This document shows positions 662 to 50,887 of a stretch of DNA of 64,000 bases, in pieces. The stretch spans positions 23,421-87,420 of the forward strand of contig JAGRIU010000034.1 in assembly GCA_020443075.1 (NCBI GenBank), read 5' to 3'. Within the stretch, counting starts at the first letter, position 1, and each line of letters begins with the position of its first letter. The notes beneath the pieces are model-generated. The model was not told where the DNA came from. It was given only the letters and a program-made list of their open reading frames with translations, and searched no databases. This DNA is from Alphaproteobacteria bacterium. Its GTDB lineage: Bacteria; Pseudomonadota; Alphaproteobacteria; Micavibrionales; Micavibrionaceae. Position numbers and translations under genes: made by a program.

Positions 662-1366
662 ATGAAACAAACGCTAAAATCACAATCCGGTAACGTTCTT
701 TGGTTTATTCTGATCGCCGTTGTCTTGCTCGGCGCACTGACCATGGTACTCTCGCGCGGCGGCTCCAATATTGATCAAACCGGCGATGTCGAGCAAAGCC
801 GCATTCTGGCCAGCCAGATTCTGCGCTATGCCAAAGGCGTCGAAACCGCGATTGAGAAAATGAAGCTGCAAGGCGTATCGGAAAACGATATCAGCTTCGA
901 AAATTCCACCACGACCACCGACTACACAAACGCCAATTGCACGGATACGGCGTGCCGCTTGTTCGATGTCGGCGGGGCCGGACTGGAATATAAAAATTTC
1001 TCATCCGCCAATGACGGCAGCGACTGGATTTTTACCGGCGCCAATAATGTCGGTACGGCCGCAGGCCCGGTCGGCACCACCGCATCCTCTTCAGGGAACG
1101 ACCTCATCATGCTGCTGCCCAACGCCAAAACGGCCCTATGCAAGCAAATAAACCGCGATCTGGGCGTCGGCACGGCAGGCACCTTGCCCACCGAAACTAC
1201 AGGCATCGTCACCATTGCCTTTGCCGGCAGCTATGCGGGCGGCGCGCCGACAATTCTGGACGGGGACCCCACGCCGTTCGAACTCGATAAACAACCCGCC
1301 GGATGCTTCATCGATGCCAGCGATTCCAATAAGGTTTATTTCTACTACGTTGTCTTGGCGCGTTAG
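662..1366 (+). CDS. Pilin-like protein, orphan paralog of the subunit encoded at 40989-41744
   Basis: ATG at 662 gives MKQTLKSQSG|NVLWFILIAVVLLGAL: a short charged leader, Gly, then a hydrophobic helix. It shares internal blocks with 40989-41744 (W[IV]F.G, GN[DE][LV]I..LP, C..IN..L) and the C-terminal Y[FY]Y.V[VL][LV].R. The upstream M at 626 overlaps the aminotransferase end and is unlikely. Confidence 0.6.
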   Translation: MKQTLKSQSGNVLWFILIAVVLLGALTMVLSRGGSNIDQTGDVEQSRILASQILRYAKGVETAIEKMKLQGVSENDISFENSTTTTDYTNANCTDTACRLFDVGGAGLEYKNFSSANDGSDWIFTGANNVGTAAGPVGTTASSSGNDLIMLLPNAKTALCKQINRDLGVGTAGTLPTETTGIVTIAFAGSYAGGAPTILDGDPTPFELDKQPAGCFIDASDSNKVYFYYVVLAR

Positions 1367-38159: not shown

Positions 38160-38248
38160 TGTACTATTTCCCTTCTTTTCAAAGAATACAATTGATATGA
38201 TAAACAGCGTCGCTTTTGCAAGTCTCTTTATCCAAAAACCTAATATTC

Positions 38249-40210
38249 ATGCCTAAATCCAAACCGCCATCCATTGCCGAACTACAGCAAAAAATCGCCG
38301 CCGCCGATGCGCTGGCGGAGCAAAAATCGAATTTTCTCGCCACGATGAGCCATGAAATCCGCACGCCGATGCAAACCATCTACGGCCTGTTGGAACTCAT
38401 CGCCGATGAAAAGCCCTCACAAAGCATTACCGAAATGGTCACCACCGCGCAGGGCGCGGCCAGCGGCTTGCTGGAAATCCTCGATGACGTGCTGGATCTG
38501 GCGAAAATGGACGCCGATAAAATGGAGCTTGATGCCTTCGAGGTTCCTGTGCGCCTGCTGGTGCGCGGCTTGCTCGAAGCCTTGGCGGTCAAAGTCCACG
38601 GCGTGGATATCGAGTTGATCGACGACATTGAAAAAGATGTTCCTTTCGTTGTGGTCGGCGATCCCAAGCGCCTGCGCCAGATCATTATGAATCTGTGCGG
38701 CAATGCGCTGAAATTCACCCATGAAGGCCGCGTCACCGTGCGCGTCACCACAAAAATTCAGGCCATTAAAGCGCCAAAAGACGGCGTAGGGCTTCGTTTC
38801 GAAGTCATCGACACCGGCATCGGCATGAATAAAGAAACCTGCGCGCGGCTTTTTGAATCCTTTTCCCAAGCCGATAATTCGACGCAGCGCAAATATGGCG
38901 GCACGGGGCTGGGCCTGTCCATTTCCAAAAAACTCGTCGAGCTTATGGACGGGCGGATCGGCGTAGACAGCGAGGAAGGCAAAGGCTCGACCTTCTGGTT
39001 CGAAATCCCCACCCGCGAGGTCAGCGCCGATGAAAGCACGGTCGAACTTCCCAAGCTCGACGGTATCTCCGTGCTCTCGGTCGAAGACCACCCGCAAGGC
39101 GCCAAGGAAATTGTCAATTCCCTGCGCTCGATGGGCGCCAGCGTCGAAAGCTGCCCGACTTATAAGGAAGGCTTGGAGCTGGCCCGCCGCCGCCCCTTTG
39201 ACGTTGCCGTGATTGATCAGGGGCTACCCGACGGGCTGGGGCTGGATTTGATCAAAGAGCTGATTGATATCCGCCCGCACATGGGCCTTGTCATGTACAC
39301 GGTGCGCGAGGATGTCGGTCTGGCGCATTCTTTGAAAGCGCTGGGCGCAACCTATCTCACCAAACCGGCCAGCCGCAAAGGCTTGGGCGAAGCCGTGCAG
39401 GACTGCGCACAAAAATCTTTGTCGATGGATATTAGCGGTCCGACAAAAATGCTCATCGCCGAAGATACGGAGAGCGTGCGTGATATCCTTAAGCGCCAGC
39501 TTGATAAACTGGGCGTAGAGGCCAGCTTCGCCGGCAATGGCAAGGAAGCCTTGAAAGCTCTTAAAGGTGGAGAATATGGTATTTTGCTCACGGACCTGCA
39601 CATGCCGGAAATGGACGGTTATGCGCTGGTCGAGGCGATCCGCACGCAGGAAAAAAGCGCAGGAAAGCATTTCCCCGTCATCGTCCTGACCGCCGATGTG
39701 CAAATGGCCCAGCGCGAAACCTATCTGCGCCATGGCTTTGATGAATGTTTGCTCAAGCCTGTGAGCTTAGGCCAGTTCCAGCGCTTGCTGATGCGCTGGG
39801 GGCTTTTGAAACAAGAGCCGCAAATCGCAGAGCATCCTAAGACAGAAAAATCCGCCGTAGAGGAAAACGGCGCGGCCATTGACCGTCAGGCGATTATTGA
39901 TCAGATGGGCGCATTGGATGAGATGGCGATAGACATGCTGGGCATGTTCGTAGAGATGACCGCGCCTTTGATTGAGCAAATAGCCGCCGCTCATGACGCG
40001 CAGGACTGGTCGGCACTGGCTGAGGCCGCACACAGCCTCAAAGGCAGCGCCCGCTCGGCCTGTTGCCTTGCCCTTGGCGATGCGGCGGCAAAGCTGCAAG
40101 ATACCGCAGAAAAAGGCCCTGCCAAAGCTGGCCTTATTGATAAGATCAAAACAGAATTTAAAAACGTCGAAGAAGATCTGCCTGTTTTGAAGGCACAGGC
40201 AGAGCGCTAG
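38249..40210 (+). CDS. Soluble hybrid histidine kinase: HisKA-HATPase-REC-REC-Hpt
   Basis: H-box FLATMSHEIRTPM, G2 box GGTGLGLSISKKLVELMDG, two receiver domains (DVAVIDQGLPDGLG and ILLTDLHMPEMDG) and Hpt (AAHSLKGSARS). No TM or sensor domain lies before the H-box. The ORF is also open from 38216. Confidence 0.85.
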   Translation: MPKSKPPSIAELQQKIAAADALAEQKSNFLATMSHEIRTPMQTIYGLLELIADEKPSQSITEMVTTAQGAASGLLEILDDVLDLAKMDADKMELDAFEVPVRLLVRGLLEALAVKVHGVDIELIDDIEKDVPFVVVGDPKRLRQIIMNLCGNALKFTHEGRVTVRVTTKIQAIKAPKDGVGLRFEVIDTGIGMNKETCARLFESFSQADNSTQRKYGGTGLGLSISKKLVELMDGRIGVDSEEGKGSTFWFEIPTREVSADESTVELPKLDGISVLSVEDHPQGAKEIVNSLRSMGASVESCPTYKEGLELARRRPFDVAVIDQGLPDGLGLDLIKELIDIRPHMGLVMYTVREDVGLAHSLKALGATYLTKPASRKGLGEAVQDCAQKSLSMDISGPTKMLIAEDTESVRDILKRQLDKLGVEASFAGNGKEALKALKGGEYGILLTDLHMPEMDGYALVEAIRTQEKSAGKHFPVIVLTADVQMAQRETYLRHGFDECLLKPVSLGQFQRLLMRWGLLKQEPQIAEHPKTEKSAVEENGAAIDRQAIIDQMGALDEMAIDMLGMFVEMTAPLIEQIAAAHDAQDWSALAEAAHSLKGSARSACCLALGDAAAKLQDTAEKGPAKAGLIDKIKTEFKNVEEDLPVLKAQAER

Positions 40211-40219
40211 GAAAATAAC

Positions 40220-40969
40220 CTAGCTGTCACATCCGTCAGCCGTATCTTGGTGCTGTCCGGCAGGCGATTTGGTCAAGACCCAGACGCGGAAACATAGATT
40301 CCCGGCCGGACATGTTGTTTCCGCCGTACCCGCATCATCCAGATTCACCGCACCGCCGCTCGCATCAATGACATCGGTCTCACAGGCGGAAAACTCCGCA
40401 TCCAGCTTGCTCAAGGCAGAAGCGAGAAAAGAGTCCGATTTGGTCGTGCGCGTCCAGAAATAGATCCCGTCCTGCCCGTTATAATATTGCCAGTCTTCAA
40501 AGAGGTCCGGCGGCGGCGGTAAAAACTTACCCGATTTGCCTGAAAAAATTTTGGCATGATCCGTCACATTCGCACCGTCTTGATGACCGGGGCAGCGTAT
40601 ATCTTTCACCAACCGTCCTGCGGTCTTGCCAATCACAGCCGCAGGCGGCCCGTCATAATGGGTAGAGCTGGGCTTAATCGGATAACGATCATCCGCGCTG
40701 GGATCACTGCCGCCGCCCGATGTATCAATTGTGCTATCCCCGCCCGGATATTTCAAAATGCATTCCTGGATGGCCGAGCGTATAATATTGACCTGTCCTT
40801 GCAGCCCTGCAACAGATTTGAAACTGTTTTGTGAAGAGGTTTGCTGCGAAGAGTTGTCCATGAAACTCAGCGTTAAAGCGGCCAGCAGCGCAATCGCGAT
40901 CAGGATATAAACAAGCGCGCTTCCGGCTTCGGAGGCGCGCTTAGCATAAGGTGTAAAAGACGGTTTCAT
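40220..40969 (-). CDS. Pilin-like protein 2 (about 250 aa) of the type IV filament-like cluster
   Basis: ATG at 40969 gives MKPSFTPYAKRASEAG|SALVYILIAIALLAALTLSF: a charged leader, Gly, then a hydrophobic helix. Several Cys lie in the C-terminal half. The track start at 41089 would overlap the upstream gene by 100 nt. Confidence 0.6.
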   Translation of the reverse strand: MKPSFTPYAKRASEAGSALVYILIAIALLAALTLSFMDNSSQQTSSQNSFKSVAGLQGQVNIIRSAIQECILKYPGGDSTIDTSGGGSDPSADDRYPIKPSSTHYDGPPAAVIGKTAGRLVKDIRCPGHQDGANVTDHAKIFSGKSGKFLPPPPDLFEDWQYYNGQDGIYFWTRTTKSDSFLASALSKLDAEFSACETDVIDASGGAVNLDDAGTAETTCPAGNLCFRVWVLTKSPAGQHQDTADGCDS

Positions 40970-40988
40970 CGCAACCAAAGGCCTTGCC

Positions 40989-41744
40989 TTAACGCTCGAC
41001 CAGAACGTGATAATACACGTAATCGCCGCTCCCGCCACCGTTACGGAAACAGCCGAAGGCTTCGCCGTCGAACAGGGCGCTGGTTTCATCGCCGCCCGTC
41101 CCCAAAATCAGGTCGCCCGCAGAGGCCATCGTCAACTCACCGCTGACTTTGCCGTGCATATAACCGATTGTTGTGGCATTGCCGGCGCGGCTGGCCGAAA
41201 GTGTAGGTGTTGTCCCGAAGCTTAACTCGCTATTAATCCGGTCGCAAATCGACGACTTAATGCCCGGCAAAAAAGCAATGACTTCATTACCGGCTGTTGC
41301 CTCGTTACTGCTGGTCCCGAGATTGACGACTTCAAAATCGCCGTTAAAAACCCACGTGCCGGGATTGCCGCTAGCCATAACATCAGCCGGGGCCGGTGCA
41401 AAGGTAGCCCCGCCGCCGCTCGGGTGAAAAACACAATCTGTAGGCGTAGCATTACAGGTTGTTGCAAAGGCCGATGGAGGATCAAAGTTGAGATCTGCCG
41501 GATCAACACCGCTACTAACCATCATACGGATAATCGCCGTGCGAACGGAAGCCGGATATTGAGTAATAGTCGCGCTACTGATCAGATTTGTCTCACTGCT
41601 GGCATCCCCGCCGCCTGAACGCGAAGACTGCGTCACGGCATAGGACAAAGCCGCAAAAAGTGCGACGGCGATCAAAATCAGAAACAAGACGTTCCCGCTT
41701 TCTTTCGAACGTGAAGCCGGAAGATGGGCCGGAATTTCAAACAT
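40989..41744 (-). CDS. Pilin-like protein 1 (251 aa) of the type IV filament-like cluster
   Basis: MFEIPAHLPASRSKESG|NVLFLILIAVALFAALSYAV: a 17-aa charged leader ending in Gly, then about 20 hydrophobic residues. It has Cys pairs and is paralogous to 662-1366. Confidence 0.65.
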   Translation of the reverse strand: MFEIPAHLPASRSKESGNVLFLILIAVALFAALSYAVTQSSRSGGGDASSETNLISSATITQYPASVRTAIIRMMVSSGVDPADLNFDPPSAFATTCNATPTDCVFHPSGGGATFAPAPADVMASGNPGTWVFNGDFEVVNLGTSSNEATAGNEVIAFLPGIKSSICDRINSELSFGTTPTLSASRAGNATTIGYMHGKVSGELTMASAGDLILGTGGDETSALFDGEAFGCFRNGGGSGDYVYYHVLVER

Positions 41745-41805: not shown

Positions 41806-42357
41806 TCACCCTGGCGTATTGACGGAAACCTTATTTATCCTCAAAGAGGCGGCCAGCGGATATTTATCGCACTCGCGCCCGACGCATAGTCTTTCAATGC
41901 TGACACGCCAGCCCGACCCTCCGTTTTGGATATGCCCGATGGCTTCGCGAAACTGGCCAAAGGCCGCTGTCGTGCTCGCAGTAATCAAAACGGTCGAACC
42001 GCTGGCCTTGATATCCAGCCCGGTATAAACATCCTTGGCATTTTTGACGAAATTTTCAACTTCCGCGCCGTTGACGGCCATATCCTGAATTTGTGGCACG
42101 GCCGGCTTCAAAGCGCTGCCTTCGGCCAATTTAGTTCTTAAAGCCGTGAGTTCCTGAAGCTGAACGGTTGTATAAAGCCCAGTGGCGGCCGCGGTGGCCC
42201 AAACGGCTCCCAAAATGATCAGCATCGTTTTATTGGTGTTTTGCGGAAGTTTCTCCAAAAAAACATTGAGATCATCAGCTACGCGAGGGTTGGCGAGCTT
42301 TTTAAAAGAACGCCAGTTAATCCCACTTGCCATTTTTTTGAACGCTGCAAAATCCAA
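41806..42357 (-). CDS. Bitopic assembly protein, GspM/PilO-like by architecture
   Basis: About 45 aa cytoplasmic, one TM (MLIILGAVWATAAATGLYTTV), a coiled-coil segment, then an approximately 100-aa periplasmic domain. Called from position in the cluster only. The start is uncertain (TTG 42357 or ATG 42333). Confidence 0.4.
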   Translation of the reverse strand: MDFAAFKKMASGINWRSFKKLANPRVADDLNVFLEKLPQNTNKTMLIILGAVWATAAATGLYTTVQLQELTALRTKLAEGSALKPAVPQIQDMAVNGAEVENFVKNAKDVYTGLDIKASGSTVLITASTTAAFGQFREAIGHIQNGGSGWRVSIERLCVGRECDKYPLAASLRINKVSVNTPG

Positions 42358-42505: not shown

Positions 42506-43495
42506 TTATCTGTTGCCGATGACACGAATACGTTCATCTTTCGAACGATCCTTTTCATCGACCCGCACACCGTATTTTTTGATAACGGTTTGTACGAAGG
42601 CAGGCGGCACCAGAGCTTCCCATTCGACACGGTCGCCTGTGACCTCATAGCGTACAAGCGTACTGTCCAGTTTGCTTAAACCATCCAGAATTTCCTGAAT
42701 TCGTACCATATGCTTGATGGTGTTGCTCTGCATCGCGTTATAAGCATTGAGCATCAAATCATTCGCGGCCTTGTCTGTCTCACGTTTAACCGTATCCAGA
42801 TCCCGCTTAATGAAATTAATGCTGATATAATTGAAGATGAGAATACTTAAAGCAATCCCGGCCACGGCTAAACCGGTAAAAATAAGCATGCGCACGGTCG
42901 CGCGTGAAAGCTTTTCCGTTTTGAGCGTCCGGTTTTGCCAAGGGATAATATCGGCGACCTCGGTATTGATCGTCACAAAATTGGCATCCATACTCTGAAC
43001 GCGCGGCAAGATCGTCCGCGACGCGCCCAGAAAAACCTGCATCCGCCCCGTTTCCGGGTCCCAGCGCAAAGCCGAAGCCAAACCTTCTTGTTCATACAAG
43101 TAAACGGTTTCTTTATCCCAATGCTCGCTATTGCCCGGCAGCGCCGCCGCCAACGGGCACCAGCTATCCGGATTCGAGGACAAAGATGCCGAAGGACAGG
43201 CCAGATACCAGATCCGTCCACCGTCAATCGAATACACATAATGAACTTTTTCTGTGCCGCAGGCCTGAGAAGCAGCATTCCAGACAGCTTCGTCTTCGGT
43301 CCCCGATACGTGGGGGATGACCCCGCCGACAATATCCTGCGGCAGATAAGGCTGAAGATCGCGAACATAATTTTTGGCCTCTCCGGCAAGCATATCGGAA
43401 AGGCCGGGCATGGGCCGCGCCGCCTGCGCGCTCTTTCGCTGTTCCATAAAGCGGCCGCGCTCTAAAGCTTTTTGATCATCCTTCGTAGTCGCCAC
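42506..43495 (-). CDS. Bitopic assembly protein, GspL / PilM-PilN-fusion-like by architecture
   Basis: About 210-aa cytoplasmic domain, one TM (MLIFTGLAVAGIALSILIF), and an approximately 100-aa periplasmic coiled-coil/ferredoxin-like tail. GTG start with a good RBS (aaggaagg). It directly follows the platform gene. Confidence 0.5.
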   Translation of the reverse strand: MATTKDDQKALERGRFMEQRKSAQAARPMPGLSDMLAGEAKNYVRDLQPYLPQDIVGGVIPHVSGTEDEAVWNAASQACGTEKVHYVYSIDGGRIWYLACPSASLSSNPDSWCPLAAALPGNSEHWDKETVYLYEQEGLASALRWDPETGRMQVFLGASRTILPRVQSMDANFVTINTEVADIIPWQNRTLKTEKLSRATVRMLIFTGLAVAGIALSILIFNYISINFIKRDLDTVKRETDKAANDLMLNAYNAMQSNTIKHMVRIQEILDGLSKLDSTLVRYEVTGDRVEWEALVPPAFVQTVIKKYGVRVDEKDRSKDERIRVIGNR

Positions 43496-43509: not shown

Positions 43510-44730
43510 TTATACTGCCCCTTGCATCAAGCCGCCCATCATAGAATCCATACTCATATTCATCACGGTCAAGGCGTAGATGGCGCTTCCGAACGCAATG
43601 GCCAGAAAAACCCCGGTAATAGCAAACGCAATCCATACGATCATCGAGTGCTTGGACTTTGCCGCATGCGAACGCATTTCGGCGATAGACTCCATAACTG
43701 TAGCAACTTGTCCCAGGTCAGACAAGGCCGCAAGCTCTAAACGTTCATTCCGGCGCAGCGGCGCACGGTCAAGTGCCGACCCCAGTGTCATCCCGCGGCT
43801 CAGATCAGCCAGCGTATCCAACCAATATTGCGTCACATCCGGCGCTGCTGACGCTTCGGCCGATTGTTCCAATGTTGTGTTAATCGGCACAAGGCCGCGC
43901 AGCATCCGTGCCGCTGCCGACATCGAATCGGCAAAGGCCAGATCGCGCAAATAACCACCGATTAACGGAATTTTTCGCACCAAGCGCGCGGTCGGCCAGT
44001 CTTTTTTGCCGCGATTGATCCAGTAGGAAAAAATACACCAGCACATAAAAGCGCCCGTAGCCACGGAAAGATAGATCAATATATCCCACGTCAGCCCCAG
44101 ACGATTGACCACCAAAGTGAACTTCTCAAGTTCGTCCGGATCACTGGGAGGATTGTCACGAAACCATTTTAAAACCATATCCTTCCCCGCCCACAAAGAC
44201 GTCACAATCGAAAACACGTCAAAGCCGAGCCAACCCATTGTCCCCATAATCGCGCGCGTATTTTTGCGCTTCTGCGTAATCGACTGGATTGCGTGTGGAA
44301 TGCCTTCAATCAAACGGTTTGCGCGTTCGCTACCGGCCAGAATCGCCAGTGTTCCGTGATCGAAGATATTCAGCGCCTTAAGTGCATCAATGACCCCCAG
44401 ACCTCGGGCCAGCGCTTCCCGAGCGGGAGCAAGAATATTTTGCCTGCGCGGGTTGGTTTCGGCCTGAATGATTTTCCACAGCGCCACGCCCGGCGATGTC
44501 GAACCGGAGCGAAACTGGATACCGCGCAAAAGCTGGACCTGCCACCATGTCGAACGCGCCAAGAGCCGCTCAAGCGGTGAACGTTCATAGGGGCGGATAC
44601 TTAAAACATAACCACCTTTCTTGGAAATGACCTCGCGTACGTCATCGGCGGTGGGCAGGTAAAATGTCTCGGTCGCTTTTTTAGCGCCGGAAGTTGTATC
44701 ATAAGCAATTTCAGCAATCCATTGCTGCAT
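43510..44730 (-). CDS. Type IV filament platform protein (GspF/PilC family)
   Basis: 406 aa with two repeated T2SSF-like halves (IPLIGGYLRDLAFADSMSAAARMLRGLVP...) and three TM segments. Lies next to the ATPase. Confidence 0.75.
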   Translation of the reverse strand: MQQWIAEIAYDTTSGAKKATETFYLPTADDVREVISKKGGYVLSIRPYERSPLERLLARSTWWQVQLLRGIQFRSGSTSPGVALWKIIQAETNPRRQNILAPAREALARGLGVIDALKALNIFDHGTLAILAGSERANRLIEGIPHAIQSITQKRKNTRAIMGTMGWLGFDVFSIVTSLWAGKDMVLKWFRDNPPSDPDELEKFTLVVNRLGLTWDILIYLSVATGAFMCWCIFSYWINRGKKDWPTARLVRKIPLIGGYLRDLAFADSMSAAARMLRGLVPINTTLEQSAEASAAPDVTQYWLDTLADLSRGMTLGSALDRAPLRRNERLELAALSDLGQVATVMESIAEMRSHAAKSKHSMIVWIAFAITGVFLAIAFGSAIYALTVMNMSMDSMMGGLMQGAV

Positions 44731-44742
44731 AGGACAGGGGCC

Positions 44743-46512
44743 TTATTCTTCCAGATAAGACAGGGCGGCTTTCGGATCGACCAGCCCGCTCAAAACCAGA
44801 TCGACCAGTCCCTCGCGGCGTGTATGGACAATCACCCCGTCTTCTTTGATCACATGGTTAACGTTATGAAGCAGAGCCTCATAAATCTCATTTCTCTGGG
44901 CCGGACCGACAGTAATTAAAAGTGCATCCAAAAGAAGTGTTCGCCCGGAAATCCCGGTACGGTTACATAGGTCACAACCCGATGTATTGTGACGGCGGAT
45001 CTTGGCTTCAGGCTCAATCTTCAGGTGGGCGAGCTCGTCCGGACTCAGAATTTTCCCGGCCATATCCTTATGAGAGCAACCCTGACACAGGGTTCGGACC
45101 AGACGTTGGTTCAAAATACAGCGCACCTGCTGCGCCAGTGTATAGGTCGAGGAACGCTCGCGCGTATGCGGCATCAAAGAGCGCAAGCGCTCAAAAGTTT
45201 GCAGCGCCGTATCGGCGTGGATAGTCGAAATCACGGTATGCCCGGATTCGGCAGCCTTCAGCGCTGTTTCCACCGTATCACCATCGCGCATCTCCCCGAT
45301 GATAATATAGTCCGGGTCATGACGCATCGAGGCACGGATCAAGTCAGCGAATTCCCCACCCGGCATCCCGGGGCGCACCTGCCATTGCGTGGCATAGCGC
45401 AACTCATATTCGATCGGGTCTTCGATCGTCAGGACATGTCTGCGCCGCCGGTCGATCTCTTGAATACAGGCATACAGCGTCGTGGTTTTACCGGAACCCG
45501 TCGGACCGGAGAGCAGGATCAAACCGCCGCCGCCCTTAATCTCGGGAGAAAGCAGTTTGGCCAGATATTCCCCGACATCCTTGTGGCGGCGGAAAAGCTC
45601 GTCAAAGCCTTTCAGGGCCGCGCGGTCAAGCAAACGCAGCGTTAGCTTTTCCCCGTCTTGGGCCTGCGGGCCGGCGGCCACACGCACGTCAATGGCGCGG
45701 CCTTGCCAGGTAAAACCAAACCGCCCGTCTTTAGGCGTGGTTCTGTCCCCGAAGTTCAGCCCGGCATCGCGCTTGAGCAAAGTCGTCAAACGTGCCATCG
45801 CATCGGGCGGCAGCAAATGCATCGGAATCATATCCCCGTCAATCCGGTACTGGATCCAGTTCGGCGCTTCGGGGTTGTTATCTTGCACAAGGTGAATATC
45901 CGAGGCGCGCATTTGCAGGGCTTCGGCCAGCATATCGCGCTGGAACTGGTTGAGCAGCAAACCGTTATCACTGTCGTTTAACCACAAGGCCAGCGTCTTC
46001 TCGCAGCGATCAGCCGAAAGATCGTGCACAGAGCGCAGCGTATCGATCAGTTCCTTACGGTCCCAGATTTCCGATTCCACGCGTTCGACGTGAAAGCCGC
46101 TTCGGCTGGCCGTGGAAATCAGCGTTTCAATCTGGCGCTCGTTAAGCTCTTGCAAGGGCGCAATGCGCAAAACCCCGTCGCTCAGACCGATCAGGTGAAT
46201 ACTTAAAGGCAACCAGGCTTGCACGGGTAAAATCGCGCGCAGCTGGTCTCCGGTCGCGCGGTCCTTAATTCCCTCGTCTTCAATATCGGAAGGTAAAACG
46301 GCCCCGGCCATATCCAAAAGCTGCTCGGTCGAGCGGGAAATACCCTGATCAAGCATCATCGATCGTTCGCGCTGGACCATATCCAGATAACGTTCGCGCC
46401 CCTCATGGGCGCGCCGCACACGTTCAGAAGCAGAGTGACGGCGCTCTACACCGCTTGGCGGCCCGCTGTCTTTCCTACGTTTTTCGGTATCTTGAGAGTC
46501 TTGACTGGCCAT
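44743..46512 (-). CDS. Type IV filament assembly ATPase (GspE/PilB family)
   Basis: Walker A LSGPTGSGKTTT, Asp box, Walker B YIIIGEMRD, His box GHTVISTIHA, and a tetracysteine motif CQGC...CDLC. Confidence 0.95.
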   Translation of the reverse strand: MASQDSQDTEKRRKDSGPPSGVERRHSASERVRRAHEGRERYLDMVQRERSMMLDQGISRSTEQLLDMAGAVLPSDIEDEGIKDRATGDQLRAILPVQAWLPLSIHLIGLSDGVLRIAPLQELNERQIETLISTASRSGFHVERVESEIWDRKELIDTLRSVHDLSADRCEKTLALWLNDSDNGLLLNQFQRDMLAEALQMRASDIHLVQDNNPEAPNWIQYRIDGDMIPMHLLPPDAMARLTTLLKRDAGLNFGDRTTPKDGRFGFTWQGRAIDVRVAAGPQAQDGEKLTLRLLDRAALKGFDELFRRHKDVGEYLAKLLSPEIKGGGGLILLSGPTGSGKTTTLYACIQEIDRRRRHVLTIEDPIEYELRYATQWQVRPGMPGGEFADLIRASMRHDPDYIIIGEMRDGDTVETALKAAESGHTVISTIHADTALQTFERLRSLMPHTRERSSTYTLAQQVRCILNQRLVRTLCQGCSHKDMAGKILSPDELAHLKIEPEAKIRRHNTSGCDLCNRTGISGRTLLLDALLITVGPAQRNEIYEALLHNVNHVIKEDGVIVHTRREGLVDLVLSGLVDPKAALSYLEE

Positions 46513-46515
46513 ATT

Positions 46516-48135
46516 CTACTGAACACTGCTTTCCGCGTCCCCGCCGCTAGAGCTGTTTGTCGAAGACGAGGCGACAACCCGGTTAATAGAGGATAAAGAA
46601 CGGTCAAACAGCAACAAAACACGGTGTTTTTTATGCACAAATTCAATGCCGTCGGCCTTAATCAGGGTCATCCAGGGCACACCGCCCAGAACGCTCTCTT
46701 CATTGTGAAAGACAATGCGGCTACCGCCGGGTCCGTTGATAATGGCCCGCGTTGGCGAAAACGAAGTGATTTTATAACCATCCAGCGTGCCGACCGGATT
46801 GGATGTGGCTCCGGTGCTACCGTTATAAGCCAAAGCCGCATTACGCGCCGCAGCTTCTTGTTGACTTGAGGGGACGCCGGCTTGCTGTGCGCTCTGCGAA
46901 GGCTCTGGCGTTTCGTCCGAGGAGAGGATAACCGCCGAGGGGTCGGACAAGACGATGGCTTTTTGATCCTGACTGACCGTTGAAACGGCGGATCCGCGCA
47001 CGGGCAAAACCAACACGCCGCGCGCGCCGTCATGGAGAATCTGGATATCGTCCAAAAGCTCGCCGACACGCGTTGGCGACCATGAAATTGTGAGCGGACA
47101 AGCTTCGATCGGTTCCAAAATATCCCCGCCGGCGCAGCCTTCGGTTTTATAGCTCACGCCGTTGTCCGATCCTGAAACTTTTATATCTTCGATCGTCAAG
47201 GGCGCATCGCCCGAATTAACCAAAGAGACGGTAATCGTGGATGTTGTGTTGATATCGCCGCCGAAATCGACTTCTTTCTGCGAAGACACCAGCAGACCTT
47301 TACCCGGTACGGCTTGCGGGAAGGTTTCGGCTTCATTCACAGCTTCGGGAGCGTATTCGCCCTTTAAGGGGACGCTGGACAGACCTGCCGGACCGCTATG
47401 TTTGGCAACTAAAACACCCGATGACCGCCCTTTGAGCTTCGGCGACCACGTCACGGTGGCGATGCACGATTGCCCGGCGGCAAGCTCCTCGCACTCCCCT
47501 TTCAGGGAATAACCGGCCTGCTCGCTGGCATCAATATACAGATTGCTAATCTTGATAGGCGTAGAAGTGACATTTCTCAAAATGATAGGCTCAACAAGCG
47601 TTTGGCTGCTGCTCAAAGATCCGAAATCAAGCTCGGACGGGATCATCTCGATATCGCTGGTCAGGTTTTCGCCAGCCCCTTCGGCCGCTTCAACCGATCC
47701 GGAAATCGTAGAAGTGACAAGGCGGCTGCGTCCATTATGCGACATCAGCATCTCAATCCGCCAGGGCCCGGGCTGCAAACCTTTAACAGAAAGCGCAATC
47801 GCACATTCAGCGCCGGAGGGCAGGGGTTCTTCCTCACACTGGTTCAAGGAAACGGCGCTGGAAACAGTGGACGACGGGTAAAGCCGGATCGTCCCCGTTT
47901 CCACAGGACGGCCGCCGTCATTTTTAAATAACAGGACGACCTGCGCGGTGGCGCCGATCGGAATTGTGCCGCCGTCCACTTGCGGAGCAACGGGCGCAAG
48001 CCCTTCCCCGGTTGCGCCCGAAGAGCGCGCGCCGGGATCATCGAGTCCGGGATATTGCGCAAGCGTCGAAGAAGTCAGCGCTAAAGCACTGAAGAAAAGA
48101 CAACCCGCATATAAAATCTTGTAACGCGAACGCAT
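46516..48135 (-). CDS. Secreted protein with three Ig-like (ASH/choice-of-anchor-D-like) repeats and a C-terminal PilP/GspC-HR-like domain
   Basis: Signal peptide MRSRYKILYAGCLFFSALALTSSTLAQ (ATG 48135). Three repeats follow the pattern (L/V)DFG...(I/V).L.N....P(I/L).I......C..L..G..C.(I/A).V.WSP. The C-terminus LDGYKITSFSPTRAIINGPGGSRIVFHNEESVLGGVPWMTLIKADGIEF resembles PilP-type beta domains. Confidence 0.55.
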   Translation of the reverse strand: MRSRYKILYAGCLFFSALALTSSTLAQYPGLDDPGARSSGATGEGLAPVAPQVDGGTIPIGATAQVVLLFKNDGGRPVETGTIRLYPSSTVSSAVSLNQCEEEPLPSGAECAIALSVKGLQPGPWRIEMLMSHNGRSRLVTSTISGSVEAAEGAGENLTSDIEMIPSELDFGSLSSSQTLVEPIILRNVTSTPIKISNLYIDASEQAGYSLKGECEELAAGQSCIATVTWSPKLKGRSSGVLVAKHSGPAGLSSVPLKGEYAPEAVNEAETFPQAVPGKGLLVSSQKEVDFGGDINTTSTITVSLVNSGDAPLTIEDIKVSGSDNGVSYKTEGCAGGDILEPIEACPLTISWSPTRVGELLDDIQILHDGARGVLVLPVRGSAVSTVSQDQKAIVLSDPSAVILSSDETPEPSQSAQQAGVPSSQQEAAARNAALAYNGSTGATSNPVGTLDGYKITSFSPTRAIINGPGGSRIVFHNEESVLGGVPWMTLIKADGIEFVHKKHRVLLLFDRSLSSINRVVASSSTNSSSGGDAESSVQ

Positions 48136-48301
48136 GATGATGTCGATGGTTTGAGTGATCCGGAAAGGACAAAAGGCAAATTTACTCTGCCGAGTGTAAC
48201 ACAAAAATTATCCACAGGATAATGGAAAGTGGCCCTTTGTAAGGCAAAAACCTTTTTTTAAGAAAAAACGGCCATGAAAAAGCGCAGAAATAAAGAAAAC
48301 T

Positions 48302-49831
48302 TTATTCCACAGAACCCGCCGGATTGAGAAGATCCGCAGGAAGGCTGCTGCCGGTTGTGCCGGTATATTCGAAATCAGGCAACTCGCCATTGTTACGGCC
48401 GTTCATATTATGGCTCGGATCTCCTTCCGAGGTATAGACAATAACCCGCGGTTTAAGCAGGAACACAAGCTCGGTATTGGAAATGGATGTGGAACGTGAA
48501 CTTGGGAAGAGTGGCTCATTAAAGCCTGGACCAGCTTTATCATATTGGTCGTTTTCACGCACCAATCCGGCAATCAGGAGTGAATCACCCGGGCGAATGC
48601 GAATCTGCGTTGACAACTCGCGCTCTGTTGTTTCGGGAAGCTGTAAAATCGTCCCGTCGGCTTCGAAATCCTGAAAACGTCGGAATTCTTGAAGGTTGAT
48701 ACCAATATTGCCGTAAACGGTCGATTTATCCCACGCACTGGAAATCGTCAGCGTAAAACCGGTATCCACAGAGTCGGTTTCGGTGGACACTGTTGTTTCT
48801 CCGTTTTCGATCGTCCGGCTGAGCGAGGATACGTAGTTCACCGTATCGGCCACGCGCAATGTCGCTTCGGCCCCGGATAAAACGGTAATTTGCGGCTGGG
48901 AAATCGTTTTGACCGAACCGTAATCGGAAATAAACTGCAGAACATTCGAAGTATCAAAGTTGGTATCGCCTAGAGCACTCGGCAACCCTATACTAACTGG
49001 CGTGTTGGATGTGGTGCCGATGCTGCCGGGCAAGCTGATGGCCGCGCCGCCGATCTTGCCGAACTGGCTCCAGTCAATCCCCATATTATTATCCGAATTC
49101 AAACCCACTTCCCAGATATAAACTTCGAAAACAATCAACGCCGTATTGGAGCGAATACGCTGGAAATAACGCTCGGCCAGATCAGCCGTACGGCTGGTGG
49201 CATCATATATAATCGTGCGCGTGCCTTCTTCGGTGATAGGCGTGGTTCCGGTAATGGCTTGCAGGCCCTTGGCCAAAGACGCCAGAATATCGGTATCGCC
49301 GCCCACTGGCGGGACGCTGACGGTAAAGGTTTGCCTGTCTTTAACCACCAACAGGCCGTCTTCAAACGAACAATATAAATCCGCAAGCCCGCAAACCTTA
49401 CTGACAACACGGTCAAGCGGCCCGCGCAAGTTGGCCACGGTGATCGTGCGCGTGAGCCCTTGCTCGGTTTCAAAGGCCAACGGAATTTGATAATCCGCTA
49501 AAATCAGTTGTAACGCCCCGGCCAACGTTTCTCCGCGCAACTCAAACGGCCCGACAACGGCGTTGGGCAAACCGGTGCCGCCCTCAGCCTCGGGAACCAG
49601 CACATCGCTGCCCAAAGGCAGGTACAAAACACTGTCGGGTTTTTCGTTAATGGCTTCGGGGCGCGGATCAGCCATCGTCGGGGAGGGAATATGGGCGTTG
49701 CGGGCTTTAGGTGTTTTCACGTCCGCACAGCTGCCAAGCAGAAAACACAAGCAAAGGCCAAGAACCGAAACGGGACGAAGCACGCTGCGTTTTGGAGATA
49801 GGCCTGGCATTCCATCAATCCTGAATCTCAT
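48302..49831 (-). CDS. Secretin-family outer-membrane channel, probable lipoprotein
   Basis: C-terminal secretin blocks (ISQPQITVLSGAEATLRVADTVNYVS, LIAGLVREND, NTELVFLLKPRVI). Lipobox-like CFLLGS|C near the N-terminus. The ATG overlaps the upstream receiver stop (ATGA). Confidence 0.85.
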   Translation of the reverse strand: MRFRIDGMPGLSPKRSVLRPVSVLGLCLCFLLGSCADVKTPKARNAHIPSPTMADPRPEAINEKPDSVLYLPLGSDVLVPEAEGGTGLPNAVVGPFELRGETLAGALQLILADYQIPLAFETEQGLTRTITVANLRGPLDRVVSKVCGLADLYCSFEDGLLVVKDRQTFTVSVPPVGGDTDILASLAKGLQAITGTTPITEEGTRTIIYDATSRTADLAERYFQRIRSNTALIVFEVYIWEVGLNSDNNMGIDWSQFGKIGGAAISLPGSIGTTSNTPVSIGLPSALGDTNFDTSNVLQFISDYGSVKTISQPQITVLSGAEATLRVADTVNYVSSLSRTIENGETTVSTETDSVDTGFTLTISSAWDKSTVYGNIGINLQEFRRFQDFEADGTILQLPETTERELSTQIRIRPGDSLLIAGLVRENDQYDKAGPGFNEPLFPSSRSTSISNTELVFLLKPRVIVYTSEGDPSHNMNGRNNGELPDFEYTGTTGSSLPADLLNPAGSVE

Positions 49832-50208
49832 GCGCTTTCACTCCGATGTCCGAGCGTCCGCGCCACAGTTTTTAAAAGCCGATCGCGCTGTACGGGCTTC
49901 ATTAAAACCGCCGCCACAGATAATTTGCCTGATTCGCTTAAAACATCTGAATTTTGGTCCCCGGTCACCAAAATAACCGGAGTTTTGACGCCCTCACTGC
50001 GGATCGTGCGAATAAACTCAAATCCGTCAATCGGCTCCATCCGCACGTCGACAATGGCCAGATGAATTGAAGGACTCATGTGTTCCAACGCTTCTTGTCC
50101 GTCATGACACTCCACGACCTCGTGTCCGTCATCATTCAGGAAACGCGCGATCTGCATCCGAACAAAATCATTGTCCTCTACAATCAAAATTTTTGAACCA
50201 TGGCTCAT
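49828..50208 (-). CDS. Single-domain CheY-like response regulator, first gene of the filament cluster
   Basis: KILIVEDND, the phosphoacceptor context LAIVDVRMEPIDG, VILVTGD and LMKPV are all canonical. ATG at 50208; the upstream extension to 50277 has no support. Confidence 0.85.
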   Translation of the reverse strand: MSHGSKILIVEDNDFVRMQIARFLNDDGHEVVECHDGQEALEHMSPSIHLAIVDVRMEPIDGFEFIRTIRSEGVKTPVILVTGDQNSDVLSESGKLSVAAVLMKPVQRDRLLKTVARTLGHRSESA

Positions 50209-50371
50209 GGTTAAACAGCTAGACCTTACAAGAGCGCCGCAGACAAAACATGCGGGCAGGGGGGATGGATAAGACAAAAGCGAATCAGTGCCAAAGGGCC
50301 TTGATCAGAGACCATTCTATCCCCTACGATAGCAGAAGTCTAGACCTTGGCTTTTAAGGGCCGTCATTCCC

Positions 50372-50887
50372 ATGCAAATGTTTGCCTCTATATTAGCCTG
50401 TTTTCTCCTCTGTGCCGCGCTAGCGCTTTTATACAACCTTGCACGCATTGATTTGAAAACCCGTCTTTTGCCCAATAAACTGGTTTTTCCGTTTGCACTT
50501 TTGGGCGTTCTTTTTCATGCCGTTTTATCATTCGGCCTGCTGCCGCTCTCGGCCATGATGATCGGCGCGGCCCTGGGCGGCGGGATTTTGCTGGGCATTC
50601 GGACACTGGCCAACGCGTTCTATAAACAAGACACGCTGGGCCTTGGAGATGTGAAGCTGATGGCCGCCGCAGGACTTTGGCTGGGGCCGGATGTCTTGCT
50701 CGCTTTAACATTAGGGGCAGTGGCCGGATTGTTGCACGGGCTAGGCGTTGCCTTATGGACGCATCACAAAAATAAACAGCCCGTCAATCTGGCGCGGCTG
50801 GAAATTCCAGCCGGACCGGGTTTTATTGTCGGCATCCTGATCGGCGCTGCCGTAAAATTTCAGAGCTTGCCCACGCTTTTATTTTAA
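50372..50887 (+). CDS. Prepilin peptidase, short form (A24 family, no methyltransferase domain)
   Basis: Two catalytic Asp contexts, ARIDLKTRLLPN and LGLGDVKLMAAAG. 171 aa, polytopic. Divergent from the cluster. Confidence 0.85.
   Translation: MQMFASILACFLLCAALALLYNLARIDLKTRLLPNKLVFPFALLGVLFHAVLSFGLLPLSAMMIGAALGGGILLGIRTLANAFYKQDTLGLGDVKLMAAAGLWLGPDVLLALTLGAVAGLLHGLGVALWTHHKNKQPVNLARLEIPAGPGFIVGILIGAAVKFQSLPTLLF

What the first reader, a model, noticed from the sequence alone, without database searches (positions are those of the whole stretch)
40220..41744. Putative prepilins with a conserved leader-Gly but no Glu5 and unusual +1 residues
The three paralogous or analogous proteins read ...KESG|NVLFLILIAVALFAAL (40989-41744), ...SEAG|SALVYILIAIALLAAL (40220-40969) and ...SQSG|NVLWFILIAVVLLGAL (662-1366). 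All have a 10-17 aa charged leader, an invariant Gly and a shared ILIA(V/I).L..AL core. Position +5 is L, Y or F, not the near-universal Glu that pairs with the N-terminal amine in assembled type IV pilins and pseudopilins. Position +1 is Asn or Ser rather than Phe or Met. The short peptidase has no methyltransferase domain. Together these point to a subunit class assembled without the canonical N-methyl/Glu5 salt bridge. At ~250 aa the subunits are also unusually large.
Basis: partly seen in the sequence, partly recalled or inferred. Interest (0 to 1): 0.7.

Follow-up and report, generated by a model that had tools for sequence, protein, structure and literature searches.

The report
Glu5-less pilin-like subunits, Micavibrio-type predators
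A gene cluster conserved across Micavibrio-like predatory bacteria encodes a pilus/secretion machine whose likely filament subunits have a nearly invariant N-terminal segment but lack the glutamate regarded as universal in bacterial pilins; cleavage and assembly have still to be shown experimentally.

Summary
Three ORFs (40989-41744, 40220-40969, 662-1366) carry a 10-17 aa basic leader, [E/Q]-x-Gly, then about 21 hydrophobic residues starting with Asn or Ser and with no Glu at +5.

- **Family-wide feature.** In 79 pilA-type genomic copies plus 120 pilB-type and 112 pilC-type homologues, -1 is always Gly and +1 always Asn or Ser. None of the roughly 590 N-termini tabulated has Glu at +5.
- **Selection on the protein.** 78 genomes encode the identical GNVLFLILIAVALFAALSYAVT, although third codon positions are only 39% identical.
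- **Controls.** Ordinary signal peptides and membrane anchors in the same cluster are far less conserved (0.35-0.66 against 0.94-1.0).
- **Context.** The genes end a syntenic type IV filament cluster: short A24 peptidase without a methylase domain, secretin, GspE-like ATPase, GspF-like platform and three unassigned proteins. The window has no canonical prepilin.
- **Known organism.** In Micavibrio aeruginosavorus ARL-13 the same cluster was read as a type II secretion system lacking pseudopilins.

Best reading: non-canonical prepilins of a Micavibrionales-specific type IV filament. Cleavage and polymerisation are untested, and no pilin HMM or significant fold match supports membership. I rate it a new variant of a known kind, interest about 0.65.

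The parts
40989..41744 (-). pilA-type subunit (251 aa), the candidate major subunit. 17-aa leader ending ESG, then the invariant NVLFLILIAVALFAALSYAVT, a Gly-rich linker, a long helix and an alpha/beta domain with invariant Cys167/Cys232.
   Evidence: Its ARL-13 counterpart GMV_1931 is the most expressed gene of the cluster.
40220..40969 (-). pilB-type subunit (249 aa), the candidate minor or priming subunit. 16-aa leader ending EAG, then SALVYILIAIALLAAL. AlphaFold2 predicts a near-continuous 56-residue N-terminal helix plus a beta-sheet. Six invariant Cys.
662..1366 (+). pilC-type orphan paralogue of pilA (234 aa). 10-aa leader ending QSG, then NVLWFILIAVVLLGAL.
50372..50887 (+). Dedicated prepilin-type aspartic peptidase (A24, 171 aa) with no methyltransferase domain. 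Both catalytic Asp motifs are present (IDxxxxxLPN and LGLGDVKL).
   Evidence: Pfam hit. Motifs are conserved at 90% or more in 54 orthologues. Synteny.
44743..46512 (-). Assembly ATPase of the GspE/PilB type (589 aa).
   Evidence: T2SSE 1e-78. GspE 234 bits and PilB 230 bits. PDB: EpsE 180 bits, above PilF 160, BfpD 89 and CpaF 44.
43510..44730 (-). Divergent GspF/PilC-type platform protein (406 aa).
   Evidence: T2SSF 6.6e-6. Weak GspF, ComGB and PilC matches. Annotated 'hypothetical' in ARL-13.
42506..43495 (-). 329-aa bitopic protein: roughly 200-aa cytoplasmic domain, one TM, roughly 100-aa periplasmic part. Its layout resembles GspL, but there is no sequence match.
   Evidence: Colinear in 69/80 loci.
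41806..42357 (-). 183-aa bitopic protein, always directly upstream of pilA even where the cluster is split. Its layout resembles GspM/PilO, but there is no sequence match.
46516..48204 (-). Periplasmic protein with Ig-like domains (ASH/choice-of-anchor D). The likely start is at 48135 (MRSRYK..., an ordinary Sec signal). A weak XpsN/GspC-like stretch lies near the C-terminus.
48302..49831 (-). Secretin (509 aa) with a lipoprotein-type signal (LLGSC). Closest models are MshL and the type IVb PilN.
   Evidence: Secretin 1.2e-17. MshL 93 bits, PilN 83 bits, GspD 43 bits.
49828..50277 (-). Single-domain response regulator, first gene of the operon.
   Evidence: synteny.
38216..40210 (+). Soluble hybrid histidine kinase (HisKA-HATPase-REC-REC-Hpt), convergent with pilB and syntenic.
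   Evidence: synteny.

Best explanation
The three proteins are non-canonical prepilins, the filament subunits of a type IV filament machine specific to Micavibrio-like (Micavibrionales) predatory alphaproteobacteria.

Proposed mechanism (steps 1, 3 and 4 are inferred; none has been shown, here or in the papers I found and could read):
1. Each protein inserts into the inner membrane through its ~21-residue hydrophobic segment, leaving the basic leader in the cytoplasm.
2. The dedicated methylase-less A24 peptidase (50372-50887) recognises [E/Q]-x-Gly and cleaves after the Gly. This leaves an unmethylated Asn1 (pilA and pilC types) or Ser1 (pilB type).
3. The GspE-type ATPase and GspF-type platform, together with the 329-aa and 183-aa bitopic proteins, extract subunits from the membrane and polymerise pilA-type subunits. 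The invariant N-terminal helices form the filament core. pilB, which shares only the N-terminus, probably primes or caps the filament.
4. The filament grows through the lipoprotein secretin.

Because no subunit has Glu5 and the peptidase cannot methylate, the core must be held together without the Glu5/N-terminal-amine salt bridge, as in archaeal pili. Conserved polar residues (Asn1/Ser1, Tyr5 in pilB, Ser17-Tyr18-Thr21 in pilA) could take over that role.

On function, I lean towards a surface pilus with a type IVb-like layout used during prey contact, rather than a purely periplasmic pseudopilus. This choice is weakly supported.
For: **Shown**
- *Class-III-like N-terminus in all three families.* The leader has a median length of 15 aa and a net charge of about +2. 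-1 Gly is 100% conserved, -3 is Glu/Gln in about 96%, and roughly 21 hydrophobic residues follow.
- *Pilin-type conservation pattern.* For pilA the most common residue per column averages 0.24 in the leader, 0.996 in the hydrophobic segment and 0.56 in the globular part. For pilB the values are 0.30, 0.94 and 0.66.
- *Purifying selection on the peptide.* 78 genomes encode the identical 22-mer, yet third codon positions are only 39% identical.
- *Controls from the same cluster and genomes.* The Sec signal of the Ig protein scores 0.35, the secretin lipoprotein signal 0.42, and the TM anchors of the 183-aa and 329-aa proteins 0.66 and 0.53.
- *N-terminus-only homology.* The pilA and pilB families are related only over the N-terminal 40 columns, as pilins are.
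- *Synteny.* GspF-329-183-pilA is colinear in 69/80 loci, and 183-pilA-pilB is adjacent in 75/80. The peptidase, secretin and ATPase are present in 54/65 loci with enough flank.
- *No alternative substrate.* There is no canonical G|xxxxE prepilin anywhere in the window.
- *Peptidase.* It keeps both catalytic Asp motifs.
- *AlphaFold2 models.* Both are confident (pLDDT 87 and 86) and have an N-terminal helix and a beta-sheet domain. The top Foldseek hits are type IV pilins: C. difficile PilA1 (prob 0.63, TM 0.57 on the target) and TcpB for pilB, and S. Typhi PilS for pilA.
- *Extracytoplasmic location.* Invariant Cys pairs fit a periplasmic or extracellular globular domain.
- *Automated annotation.* JGI's pipeline names some pilB- and pilC-type members 'pseudopilin PulG'.

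**From the literature**
- M. aeruginosavorus ARL-13 has the same cluster, GMV_1929-1939, with both subunit genes annotated 'hypothetical'. Its Tad and type IVa systems each have their own peptidase.
- The authors noted that GspCGHK were missing from the annotated T2SS components.
- GMV_1931, the pilA counterpart, is the most expressed gene of the cluster and rises from 9.9 to 53.8 in the attachment phase (PMC3189940).
Against: - No pilin or pseudopilin HMM matches (Pfam, including N_methyl, and NCBIfam).
- A profile of the N-terminus finds no pilin among PDB sequences.
- The Foldseek matches are not significant (E 0.2-1.2). The pilA model has a Gly-rich break between the hydrophobic helix and the next helix, not one continuous alpha1.
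- Glu5, required for assembly in the bacterial systems tested, is absent from every subunit.
- Only two subunit genes sit in the cluster.
- Paralogues exist in which the same globular domain sits on an ordinary anchor behind an anti-sigma-like N-terminus. The domain can therefore work as a plain membrane-anchored periplasmic module.
- There is no direct evidence for cleavage, methylation state or filaments.
Confidence: 0.62

Rival explanations
1. They are uncleaved bitopic inner-membrane proteins, either accessory or assembly components of the machine in the manner of GspM/PilN/PilO, or periplasmic receptors. The conserved membrane helix would contact the platform rather than form a filament core.
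For: - The layout (short cytoplasmic N-terminus, one TM, a long helix, then an alpha/beta domain) also fits PilN/PilO/GspM-type proteins.
- There is no pilin HMM match and no significant fold match.
- Anti-sigma-like paralogues use the same globular domain on a normal anchor.
Against: - The GspL-, GspM- and GspC-like slots are already filled by the 329-aa, 183-aa and Ig-domain proteins. Their TM segments are only 0.53-0.66 conserved, against 0.94-1.0 here.
- An invariant Gly directly before the hydrophobic segment, shared by families with unrelated globular domains, is the signature of a cleavage site, not of an anchor.
- The machine would then have a dedicated prepilin peptidase, ATPase, platform and secretin but no subunit.
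- The pilA counterpart is the most expressed gene of the cluster.
Confidence: 0.2
2. They are Sec-exported proteins with an unusually conserved signal peptide that signal peptidase I removes (for example after ..LSYA in pilA). They could be abundant cargo of the neighbouring type II-like secretion machine.
For: - pilA has a possible S-Y-A|V site at the end of the hydrophobic stretch (sequence).
- The globular domains are Cys-rich and extracytoplasmic.
- The cluster was read as a T2SS in ARL-13.
Against: - The hydrophobic stretch is about 21 residues long and invariant. The genuine Sec and lipoprotein signals in the same cluster are the least conserved parts of their proteins (0.35 and 0.42).
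- A conserved acidic residue at -3 next to the hydrophobic core is atypical for Sec n-regions.
- pilB and pilC lack a comparable conserved A-x-A-like site.
- The anti-sigma-like paralogues keep ..SYAVTQSS.. although they must stay membrane-anchored to work.
Confidence: 0.07
3. The shared motif is a chance resemblance or an annotation artefact with no common function.
For: None found.
Against: - Thousands of homologues exist: 3443, 959 and 263 hits, and 4263 clusters at 50% identity.
- The motif is invariant and the synteny is strict.
Confidence: 0.01

Closest known systems
Type II secretion pseudopilins (GspG-K/PulG) and the T2SS machine
   Same: - Basic leader, Gly at -1 and a ~20-residue hydrophobic N-terminus.
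- The ATPase scores best against GspE, and there is a GspF-type platform and a secretin.
- Three further envelope proteins have layouts like GspL, GspM and GspC.
- No retraction ATPase in the cluster.
- The ARL-13 authors counted these genes as a T2SS, and JGI labels some members PulG.
   Different: - No Glu5, no Phe/Met at +1 and no N_methyl/GFxxxE HMM match.
- Two subunit genes in the cluster instead of five.
- Mature subunits of about 230 aa, against about 140.
- Peptidase without a methylase domain.
- The secretin is short, lipidated and closer to MshL/PilN than to GspD.
- The GspC/L/M-like proteins have no detectable sequence similarity to the real ones.
Type IVb pili (TCP, BFP, CFA/III, R64 thin pilus)
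   Same: - Large pilins, longer leaders and a variable +1 residue.
- One major plus one minor subunit, in a compact operon with its own peptidase.
- A lipoprotein secretin (PilN-family model, 83 bits).
- The best, though insignificant, structural neighbours are type IVb pilins or type IVb-like ones: PilS, TcpB and C. difficile PilA1.
   Different: - Type IVb pilins keep Glu5, and it forms the salt bridge in TCP (PMC10710030).
- The ATPase here is much closer to GspE/PilB than to BfpD (180 against 89 bits).
Tad/Flp (type IVc) pili
   Same: The prepilin peptidase lacks the methylase domain, as TadV does (PMC10191384), so the pilins are not N-methylated.
   Different: - Flp pilins are about 50-60 aa with G|xxxxEY.
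- Tad uses a TadA/CpaF ATPase (44 bits here) and two half-size platform proteins.
- ARL-13 has a separate, complete Tad locus.
Archaeal type IV pilins and archaellins
   Same: [quoted passage not shown]
- A variable small or polar +1 residue.
- Peptidases without a methylase domain.
- Many proteins with different globular domains sharing one class III signal.
   Different: - The machine here is bacterial: a GspE-type ATPase and a secretin in a diderm envelope.
- The FlaI match is weak (64 bits).
- There is no sequence similarity between the subunits.
Tip minor pilins lacking Glu5 (GspK/PilK/PilX-type)
   Same: These are bacterial pilin-like proteins that naturally lack Glu5 (PMC10191384).
   Different: In those systems only the single capping subunit lacks Glu5. 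Here every subunit does, including the candidate major one.

Membership tests
Type IV pilin / class III signal peptide proteins (Pfam N_methyl PF07963, TIGR02532) | Short, positively charged leader ending in Gly at -1 | tested here: met
   Leader median length is 15 aa and net charge about +2. Gly at -1 in 79/79, 120/120 and 112/112 sequences.
Type IV pilin / class III signal peptide proteins (Pfam N_methyl PF07963, TIGR02532) | About 20 uninterrupted hydrophobic residues directly after the cleavage site, more conserved than the rest of the protein | tested here: met
   The 21-residue segment scores 0.996 (pilA) and 0.94 (pilB), against 0.56 and 0.66 for the globular parts. Control signals and anchors score 0.35-0.66.
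Type IV pilin / class III signal peptide proteins (Pfam N_methyl PF07963, TIGR02532) | Glu at mature position 5 | tested here: not met
   +5 is L/I/M (pilA), Y (pilB) or F/I/L/M/V/Y (pilC). It is never Glu in any homologue examined.
Type IV pilin / class III signal peptide proteins (Pfam N_methyl PF07963, TIGR02532) | Match to the family HMMs | tested here: not met
   No Pfam or NCBIfam pilin model matches, even at E up to 10 on the N-terminal 60 aa. The only hint is a match of the pilB N-terminus to the first 42 positions of Verru_Chthon cassette protein A (E 0.0024, far below its cut-off).
Type IV pilin / class III signal peptide proteins (Pfam N_methyl PF07963, TIGR02532) | Long N-terminal alpha-helix packed on an antiparallel beta-sheet (the 'lollipop' fold) | tested here: inconclusive
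   In the AlphaFold2 model of pilB, helices 18-37 and 39-73 precede a sheet. Its top PDB hit is C. difficile PilA1, at E 0.21 and TM 0.57 on the target. In pilA the helix is broken by a Gly-rich loop, and the top hit, PilS, has E 1.2.
Type IV pilin / class III signal peptide proteins (Pfam N_methyl PF07963, TIGR02532) | Leader removed by a prepilin peptidase; subunits polymerise into a filament | not testable with these tools
   This needs N-terminal proteomics and filament isolation.
Type IV filament machinery (core set) | A24 aspartic prepilin peptidase with two catalytic Asp | tested here: met
   Peptidase_A24 at 9e-18. The IDxxxxxLPN and LGLGDVKL motifs are conserved at 90% or more in 54 orthologues.
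Type IV filament machinery (core set) | Assembly ATPase (GspE/PilB family) and polytopic platform (GspF/PilC family) | tested here: met
   T2SSE at 1e-78 and T2SSF at 6.6e-6, just above its gathering score.
Canonical T2SS (Gsp) | Five pseudopilins GspG-K, plus GspC, GspL and GspM recognisable by sequence, and a GspD secretin | tested here: not met
   No GspG-K, GspC, GspL or GspM models match. The secretin scores MshL 93 and PilN 83, above GspD 43. All equivalog scores fall far below their cut-offs.
Type IVb pilus | Type IVb assembly ATPase (BfpD/TcpT/PilQ clade) and pilins with Glu5 | tested here: not met
   BfpD scores 89 bits against EpsE 180 bits, and there is no Glu5.
Tad/Flp pilus | Flp-type small pilin with G|xxxxEY, a TadA ATPase and a TadB/TadC pair | tested here: not met
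   The subunits are about 230 aa with no EY motif. CpaF scores 44 bits, and there is a single 406-aa platform protein.

The most novel reading that the evidence does not exclude
This is a distinct, order-wide class of bacterial type IV filament. Its core is built from an invariant, uncharged, unmethylated N-terminal helix (Asn1...Thr21) with no Glu5 salt bridge in any subunit. It serves as the prey-contact or feeding organelle of epibiotic Micavibrio-like predators. Its exchangeable major-subunit paralogues are switched by ECF sigma factors, whose anti-sigma partners carry a pilin-mimicking periplasmic domain.
Probability: 0.3. Interest if true: 0.85.

Novelty: new variant of a known kind. Interest (0 to 1): 0.65.

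Why it matters
Glu5 is treated as the one universal residue of bacterial type IV pilins. [quoted passage not shown] Together with N-methylation it underlies current models of subunit docking.

- **A natural test case.** A large bacterial family (more than 4000 clusters at 50% identity) lacks both features in every subunit yet keeps an extraordinarily constrained N-terminal helix. It could show what Glu5 and methylation are really needed for, and how a filament core can be specified by other contacts.
- **A gap filled.** The 'missing pseudopilins' of the type II-like system in the M. aeruginosavorus ARL-13 genome paper now have candidates. Two families of 'hypothetical proteins' have a likely assignment.
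- **A lead on predation.** The cluster points to a conserved, attachment-phase-induced envelope machine in epibiotic predators. A 2025 review says their prey junction has no known molecular basis (PMC12428579).
- **A practical point.** Pilin detectors based on the GFxxxE motif will miss this class entirely.

Tried and rejected
- **HMM libraries on all cluster proteins.** Pfam and NCBIfam gave nothing for the three subunits or for the 183-aa and 329-aa proteins.
- **Profiles against PDB sequences.** Profiles of the 329-aa protein, the 183-aa protein and the shared N-terminus, and the peptidase sequence itself (phmmer), gave only chance hits or none. GspL/GspM identity therefore rests on layout alone.
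- **Foldseek of both AlphaFold2 models against the PDB.** Pilins rank first, but no hit has E below 0.001. I do not count this as membership.
- **Canonical prepilins.** A scan for G-x4-E followed by a hydrophobic stretch found none in the window.
- **Further family members.** A profile scan of the six-frame translation found only the three.
- **DNA-level explanation.** I considered whether the conserved N-terminus reflects DNA-level conservation or recent transfer, and rejected it. Third codon positions are close to saturated.
- **Sec signal peptide and plain TM anchor readings.** Both are disfavoured by the conservation controls from the same cluster.
- **Promoter and terminator scan around the subunit genes.** The counts were no higher than in shuffled sequence.
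- **Literature.** Searches for a description of this system or of Glu5-less bacterial major pilins found nothing specific. Pasternak et al. 2014 could not be read.
- **Limits.** A proper ATPase phylogeny was not built; only model and PDB scores were compared.
Full report
**1. The observation**

All three ORFs exist as described.
- pilA-type, 40989-41744(-), reads MFEIPAHLPASRSKESG|NVLFLILIAVALFAALSYAVT...
- pilB-type, 40220-40969(-), reads MKPSFTPYAKRASEAG|SALVYILIAIALLAAL...
- pilC-type, 662-1366(+), reads MKQTLKSQSG|NVLWFILIAVVLLGAL...

A regular-expression scan and profile scans of the six-frame translation find exactly these three members in the 64 kb. pilA and pilC are true paralogues (29% identity, E 6e-26). 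pilB is related to them only over the first 40 columns, that is the end of the leader plus the hydrophobic segment (hhalign prob 96%, E 2e-9; BLASTP finds nothing else).

No Pfam or NCBIfam family matches any of the three. The peptidase at 50372-50887 is 171 aa, with a Peptidase_A24 domain only.

**2. The features are family-wide**

| Search | Result |
|---|---|
| pilA against the 5.8-billion-protein set | 3443 homologues |
| pilB, same set | 959 homologues |
| pilC, same set | 263 homologues |
| pilA profile against 50%-identity representatives | 4263 clusters at E <= 1e-3; 777 at E <= 1e-30 |

Nearly all are unnamed or 'hypothetical'. Where a source is named, they come from Micavibrio or alphaproteobacterial MAGs. 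A scan of one genome per species found 492 coding stretches. The 80 loci kept include the complete genome of M. aeruginosavorus HCB189.

Among the homologues examined:
- The leader varies in length (5-46 aa, median 15) and in sequence, with a net charge of about +2.
- -1 is Gly in 79/79 pilA genomic copies, 120/120 pilB proteins and 112/112 pilC proteins.
- -3 is Glu (about 80%) or Gln (about 16%).
- +1 is always Asn (pilA, pilC) or Ser (pilB).
- +5 is L/I/M, Y or F/I/L/M/V/Y, never Glu.

**3. The hydrophobic segment is under extraordinary protein-level constraint**

Seventy-eight genomes encode the identical 22-mer GNVLFLILIAVALFAALSYAVT. Their codons nevertheless differ freely: pairwise identity is 0.95 at codon positions 1 and 2 but only 0.39 at position 3.

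The table gives the mean frequency of the commonest residue per column.

| Protein and segment | Conservation |
|---|---|
| pilA leader | 0.24 |
| pilA -3 to -1 | 0.79 |
| pilA hydrophobic segment | 0.996 |
| pilA globular part | 0.56 |
| pilB leader / hydrophobic segment / rest | 0.30 / 0.94 / 0.66 |
| Ig-domain protein, Sec signal / rest | 0.35 / 0.67 |
| Secretin, lipoprotein signal / rest | 0.42 / 0.74 |
| 183-aa protein, TM anchor | 0.66 |
| 329-aa protein, TM anchor | 0.53 |

The last four rows are controls from the same cluster and the same genomes. Ordinary signal peptides and anchors are no better conserved than the rest of their proteins. The pilA and pilB N-termini are far better conserved than their globular parts. 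That is the classic pilin pattern, and it argues against both a Sec signal peptide and a plain membrane anchor.

**4. Context**

The subunit genes end a strictly syntenic operon. The peptidase is divergent from it, and the gene order is response regulator, secretin, Ig-domain protein, GspE-type ATPase, GspF-type platform, 329-aa protein, 183-aa protein, pilA, pilB. A convergent hybrid histidine kinase follows.

- GspF-329-183-pilA is colinear in 69 of 80 loci.
- 183-pilA-pilB is adjacent in 75 of 80.
- The peptidase, secretin and ATPase are present in 54 of the 65 loci with enough upstream DNA.
- In 8 loci the subunit trio lies apart from the machinery.

The components look like this:
- The ATPase scores best against GspE (NCBIfam 234 bits against PilB 230). 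Against PDB sequences EpsE scores 180 bits, PilF 160, BfpD 89 and CpaF 44.
- The secretin is a short lipoprotein, closest to the MshL and type IVb PilN models (93 and 83 bits, against GspD 43).
- The peptidase orthologues keep both catalytic Asp motifs, IDxxxxxLPN and LGLGDVKL.
- The window has no canonical prepilin, meaning G-x4-E followed by a hydrophobic stretch.

**5. Link to a cultured organism**

The expression table of the M. aeruginosavorus ARL-13 genome paper lists the same gene order (PMC3189940, Additional file 4).

| Gene | Annotation | Length | Counterpart here |
|---|---|---|---|
| GMV_1929 | His kinase | 2334 bp | hybrid kinase |
| GMV_1930 | hypothetical | 774 bp | pilB |
| GMV_1931 | hypothetical | 738 bp | pilA |
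| GMV_1932 | hypothetical | 531 bp | 183-aa protein |
| GMV_1933 | hypothetical | 996 bp | 329-aa protein |
| GMV_1934 | hypothetical | 1221 bp | platform |
| GMV_1935 | type II/IV secretion ATPase | 1842 bp | ATPase |
| GMV_1936 | hypothetical | 1632 bp | Ig-domain protein |
| GMV_1937 | secretin | 1785 bp | secretin |
| GMV_1938 | response regulator | 564 bp | response regulator |
| GMV_1939 | leader peptidase | 507 bp | peptidase |

pyrB (GMV_1941) lies just beyond the peptidase gene, as it does in the window.

- That paper called the type II secretion system 'functional' but noted that GspCGHK were absent from the annotation.
- ARL-13 also has a Tad locus with its own peptidase (GMV_531) and a type IVa locus with a longer 825-bp leader-peptidase gene and PilT genes (GMV_1530-1544). 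Each filament system therefore has its own peptidase.
- The canonical prepilins sit with the other two systems, leaving GMV_1930/1931 as the only candidate substrates for GMV_1939.
- GMV_1931 is the most expressed gene of the cluster and rises from an expression index of 9.9 (attack phase) to 53.8 (attachment phase).
- I matched these genes to the window by order and length, not by sequence.

**6. Structure**

Both AlphaFold2 models are confident.
- pilA (pLDDT 87, pTM 0.77): helix 19-39, a Gly-rich loop at 40-47, helix 48-78, then an alpha/beta domain.
- pilB (pLDDT 86, pTM 0.78): helices 18-37 and 39-73 form a near-continuous 56-residue N-terminal helix, followed by a beta-sheet.

Foldseek against the PDB gives no significant match, although type IV pilins rank first. 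For pilB these are C. difficile PilA1 (E 0.21, prob 0.63, TM 0.57 on the target) and the minor pilin TcpB. For pilA the top hit is the type IVb pilin PilS of S. Typhi (E 1.2).

Invariant Cys residues (two in pilA, six in pilB) fit an extracytoplasmic, disulfide-bonded domain. I treat the fold evidence as compatible with a pilin but not as proof.

**7. Most likely mechanism**

- *Shown:* a class-III-like N-terminus; pilin-type conservation; a dedicated, catalytically intact, methylase-less A24 peptidase; a complete filament motor and secretin; no other subunit candidates; attachment-phase expression in ARL-13.
- *Inferred:* the peptidase cleaves after [E/Q]-x-Gly, and mature Asn1/Ser1 subunits are not methylated. 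pilA polymerises as the major subunit, with its invariant helix in the filament core, and pilB primes or caps. The GspE-type ATPase with the platform and the 329-aa and 183-aa proteins drives assembly through the secretin.

With no Glu5 in any subunit, the N-terminal amine cannot be neutralised in the usual way. Precedents exist. Archaeal pili lack Glu5, and in the Caulobacter Tad pilus Glu5 does not contact neighbouring subunits (PMC10710030). Conserved polar residues (Asn1/Ser1, Tyr5 of pilB, Ser17/Tyr18/Thr21 of pilA) are candidate substitutes.

Pilus or pseudopilus is unresolved.
- The ATPase and the GspL/M/C-like layouts point to type II secretion.
- The secretin type, the two-subunit layout, the large subunits and the many major-subunit paralogues point to a type IVb-like surface pilus. 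I lean to the latter.

**8. Rivals**

- *Uncleaved bitopic accessory proteins (0.20).* The layout is compatible, and anti-sigma-like paralogues show that the domain works on a normal anchor. However, the invariant Gly, the conservation controls, the already occupied L/M/C slots and the otherwise subunit-less machine all argue against it.
- *Sec signal peptide, possibly type II secretion cargo (0.07).* pilA has a possible SYA|V site. However, the segment is too long and far too conserved, the -3 acidic residue is atypical, and the anti-sigma paralogues keep ..SYAVTQSS.. while needing to stay anchored.
- *Chance (0.01).* Excluded.

**9. Comparison with known systems and novelty**

The system works like a type IV filament and has the core machinery. 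The subunits, however, fail two defining tests of the classical pilin family, Glu5 and the HMM match. The machine fits none of T2SS, T4aP, T4bP, MSH, Tad or Com cleanly.

In bacteria, loss of Glu5 is otherwise known only for the single tip subunit (PMC10191384). I found no paper describing this system or a bacterial major pilin without Glu5. [quoted passage not shown]

Verdict: a real feature, a new variant of a known kind, with a confidence of 0.62 in the pilin reading and an interest of about 0.65.

Noticed in passing
L084:6091-8296; L083:202-1838 (not in the window): Some pilA-family members (P0258, P0292, P0310, P0315, P0317, P0326, P0343, P0366) have lost the [E/Q]xG|NVLFLILIA part. They carry instead a 55-65 aa cytoplasmic N-terminus and a different first half of the TM, but keep ..SY(A/M)VTQSSRSGGGDA and the whole globular domain (49% identity to the window pilA). 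In L084 such a gene overlaps the end of an ECF sigma factor gene and is followed by a normal pilA-type gene. L083 also has a normal pilA-type gene directly downstream, but only an unidentified 68-aa fragment upstream. In L084 this makes an ECF sigma / anti-sigma (pilin-like periplasmic domain) / pilin operon, which suggests regulation by pilin mimicry.
   Followed up: partly
window 662-1366; L081/L082:8001-8720: The pilC-type paralogue is an orphan gene whose neighbourhood differs between genomes: between an aminotransferase and polA here, next to RNase E in L081/L082. Its hydrophobic segment varies among orthologues, unlike the invariant pilA segment. That fits a minor or alternative subunit.
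   Followed up: partly
window 41806-42357 and loci L003, L033, L048, L049, L051, L057, L075: The 183-aa bitopic protein stays directly upstream of pilA-pilB even in the loci where the rest of the machinery is elsewhere. It may be tied functionally to the subunits rather than to the motor. It has no detectable homologue in Pfam, NCBIfam or PDB sequences.
   Followed up: partly
window 38216-40210 and 49828-50277: A soluble hybrid histidine kinase (HisKA-HATPase-REC-REC-Hpt) and a stand-alone receiver protein flank the cluster and are syntenic with it in most loci. They are probably a dedicated phosphorelay controlling the machine. The response regulator ORF overlaps the secretin start by 4 nt.
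   Followed up: partly
window 46516-48204: The 562-aa protein between the secretin and the ATPase has Ig-like ASH/choice-of-anchor D/DUF1573 domains and an ordinary Sec signal (likely start at 48135). Only a very weak XpsN (GspC)-like stretch lies near its C-terminus. It may link the inner-membrane platform to the secretin.
   Followed up: partly
L060:10849-12312; L079:3-2091: Some genomes carry tandem duplicates of the subunit genes: two pilB-type genes in L060, and pilA-pilB-pilA in L079.
   Followed up: no
proteins P0199, P0229, P0426, P0493, P0506: JGI's automatic annotation names a few pilB- and pilC-type proteins 'type II secretory pathway pseudopilin PulG', while NCBI calls all of them hypothetical. 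Pipelines are inconsistent for this family.
   Followed up: no
window 40970-41089: The mechanical ORF for pilB extends 40 codons upstream to an ATG at 41089, overlapping the 3' end of pilA. Homologue leader lengths indicate that the 40969 start is the real one.
   Followed up: yes
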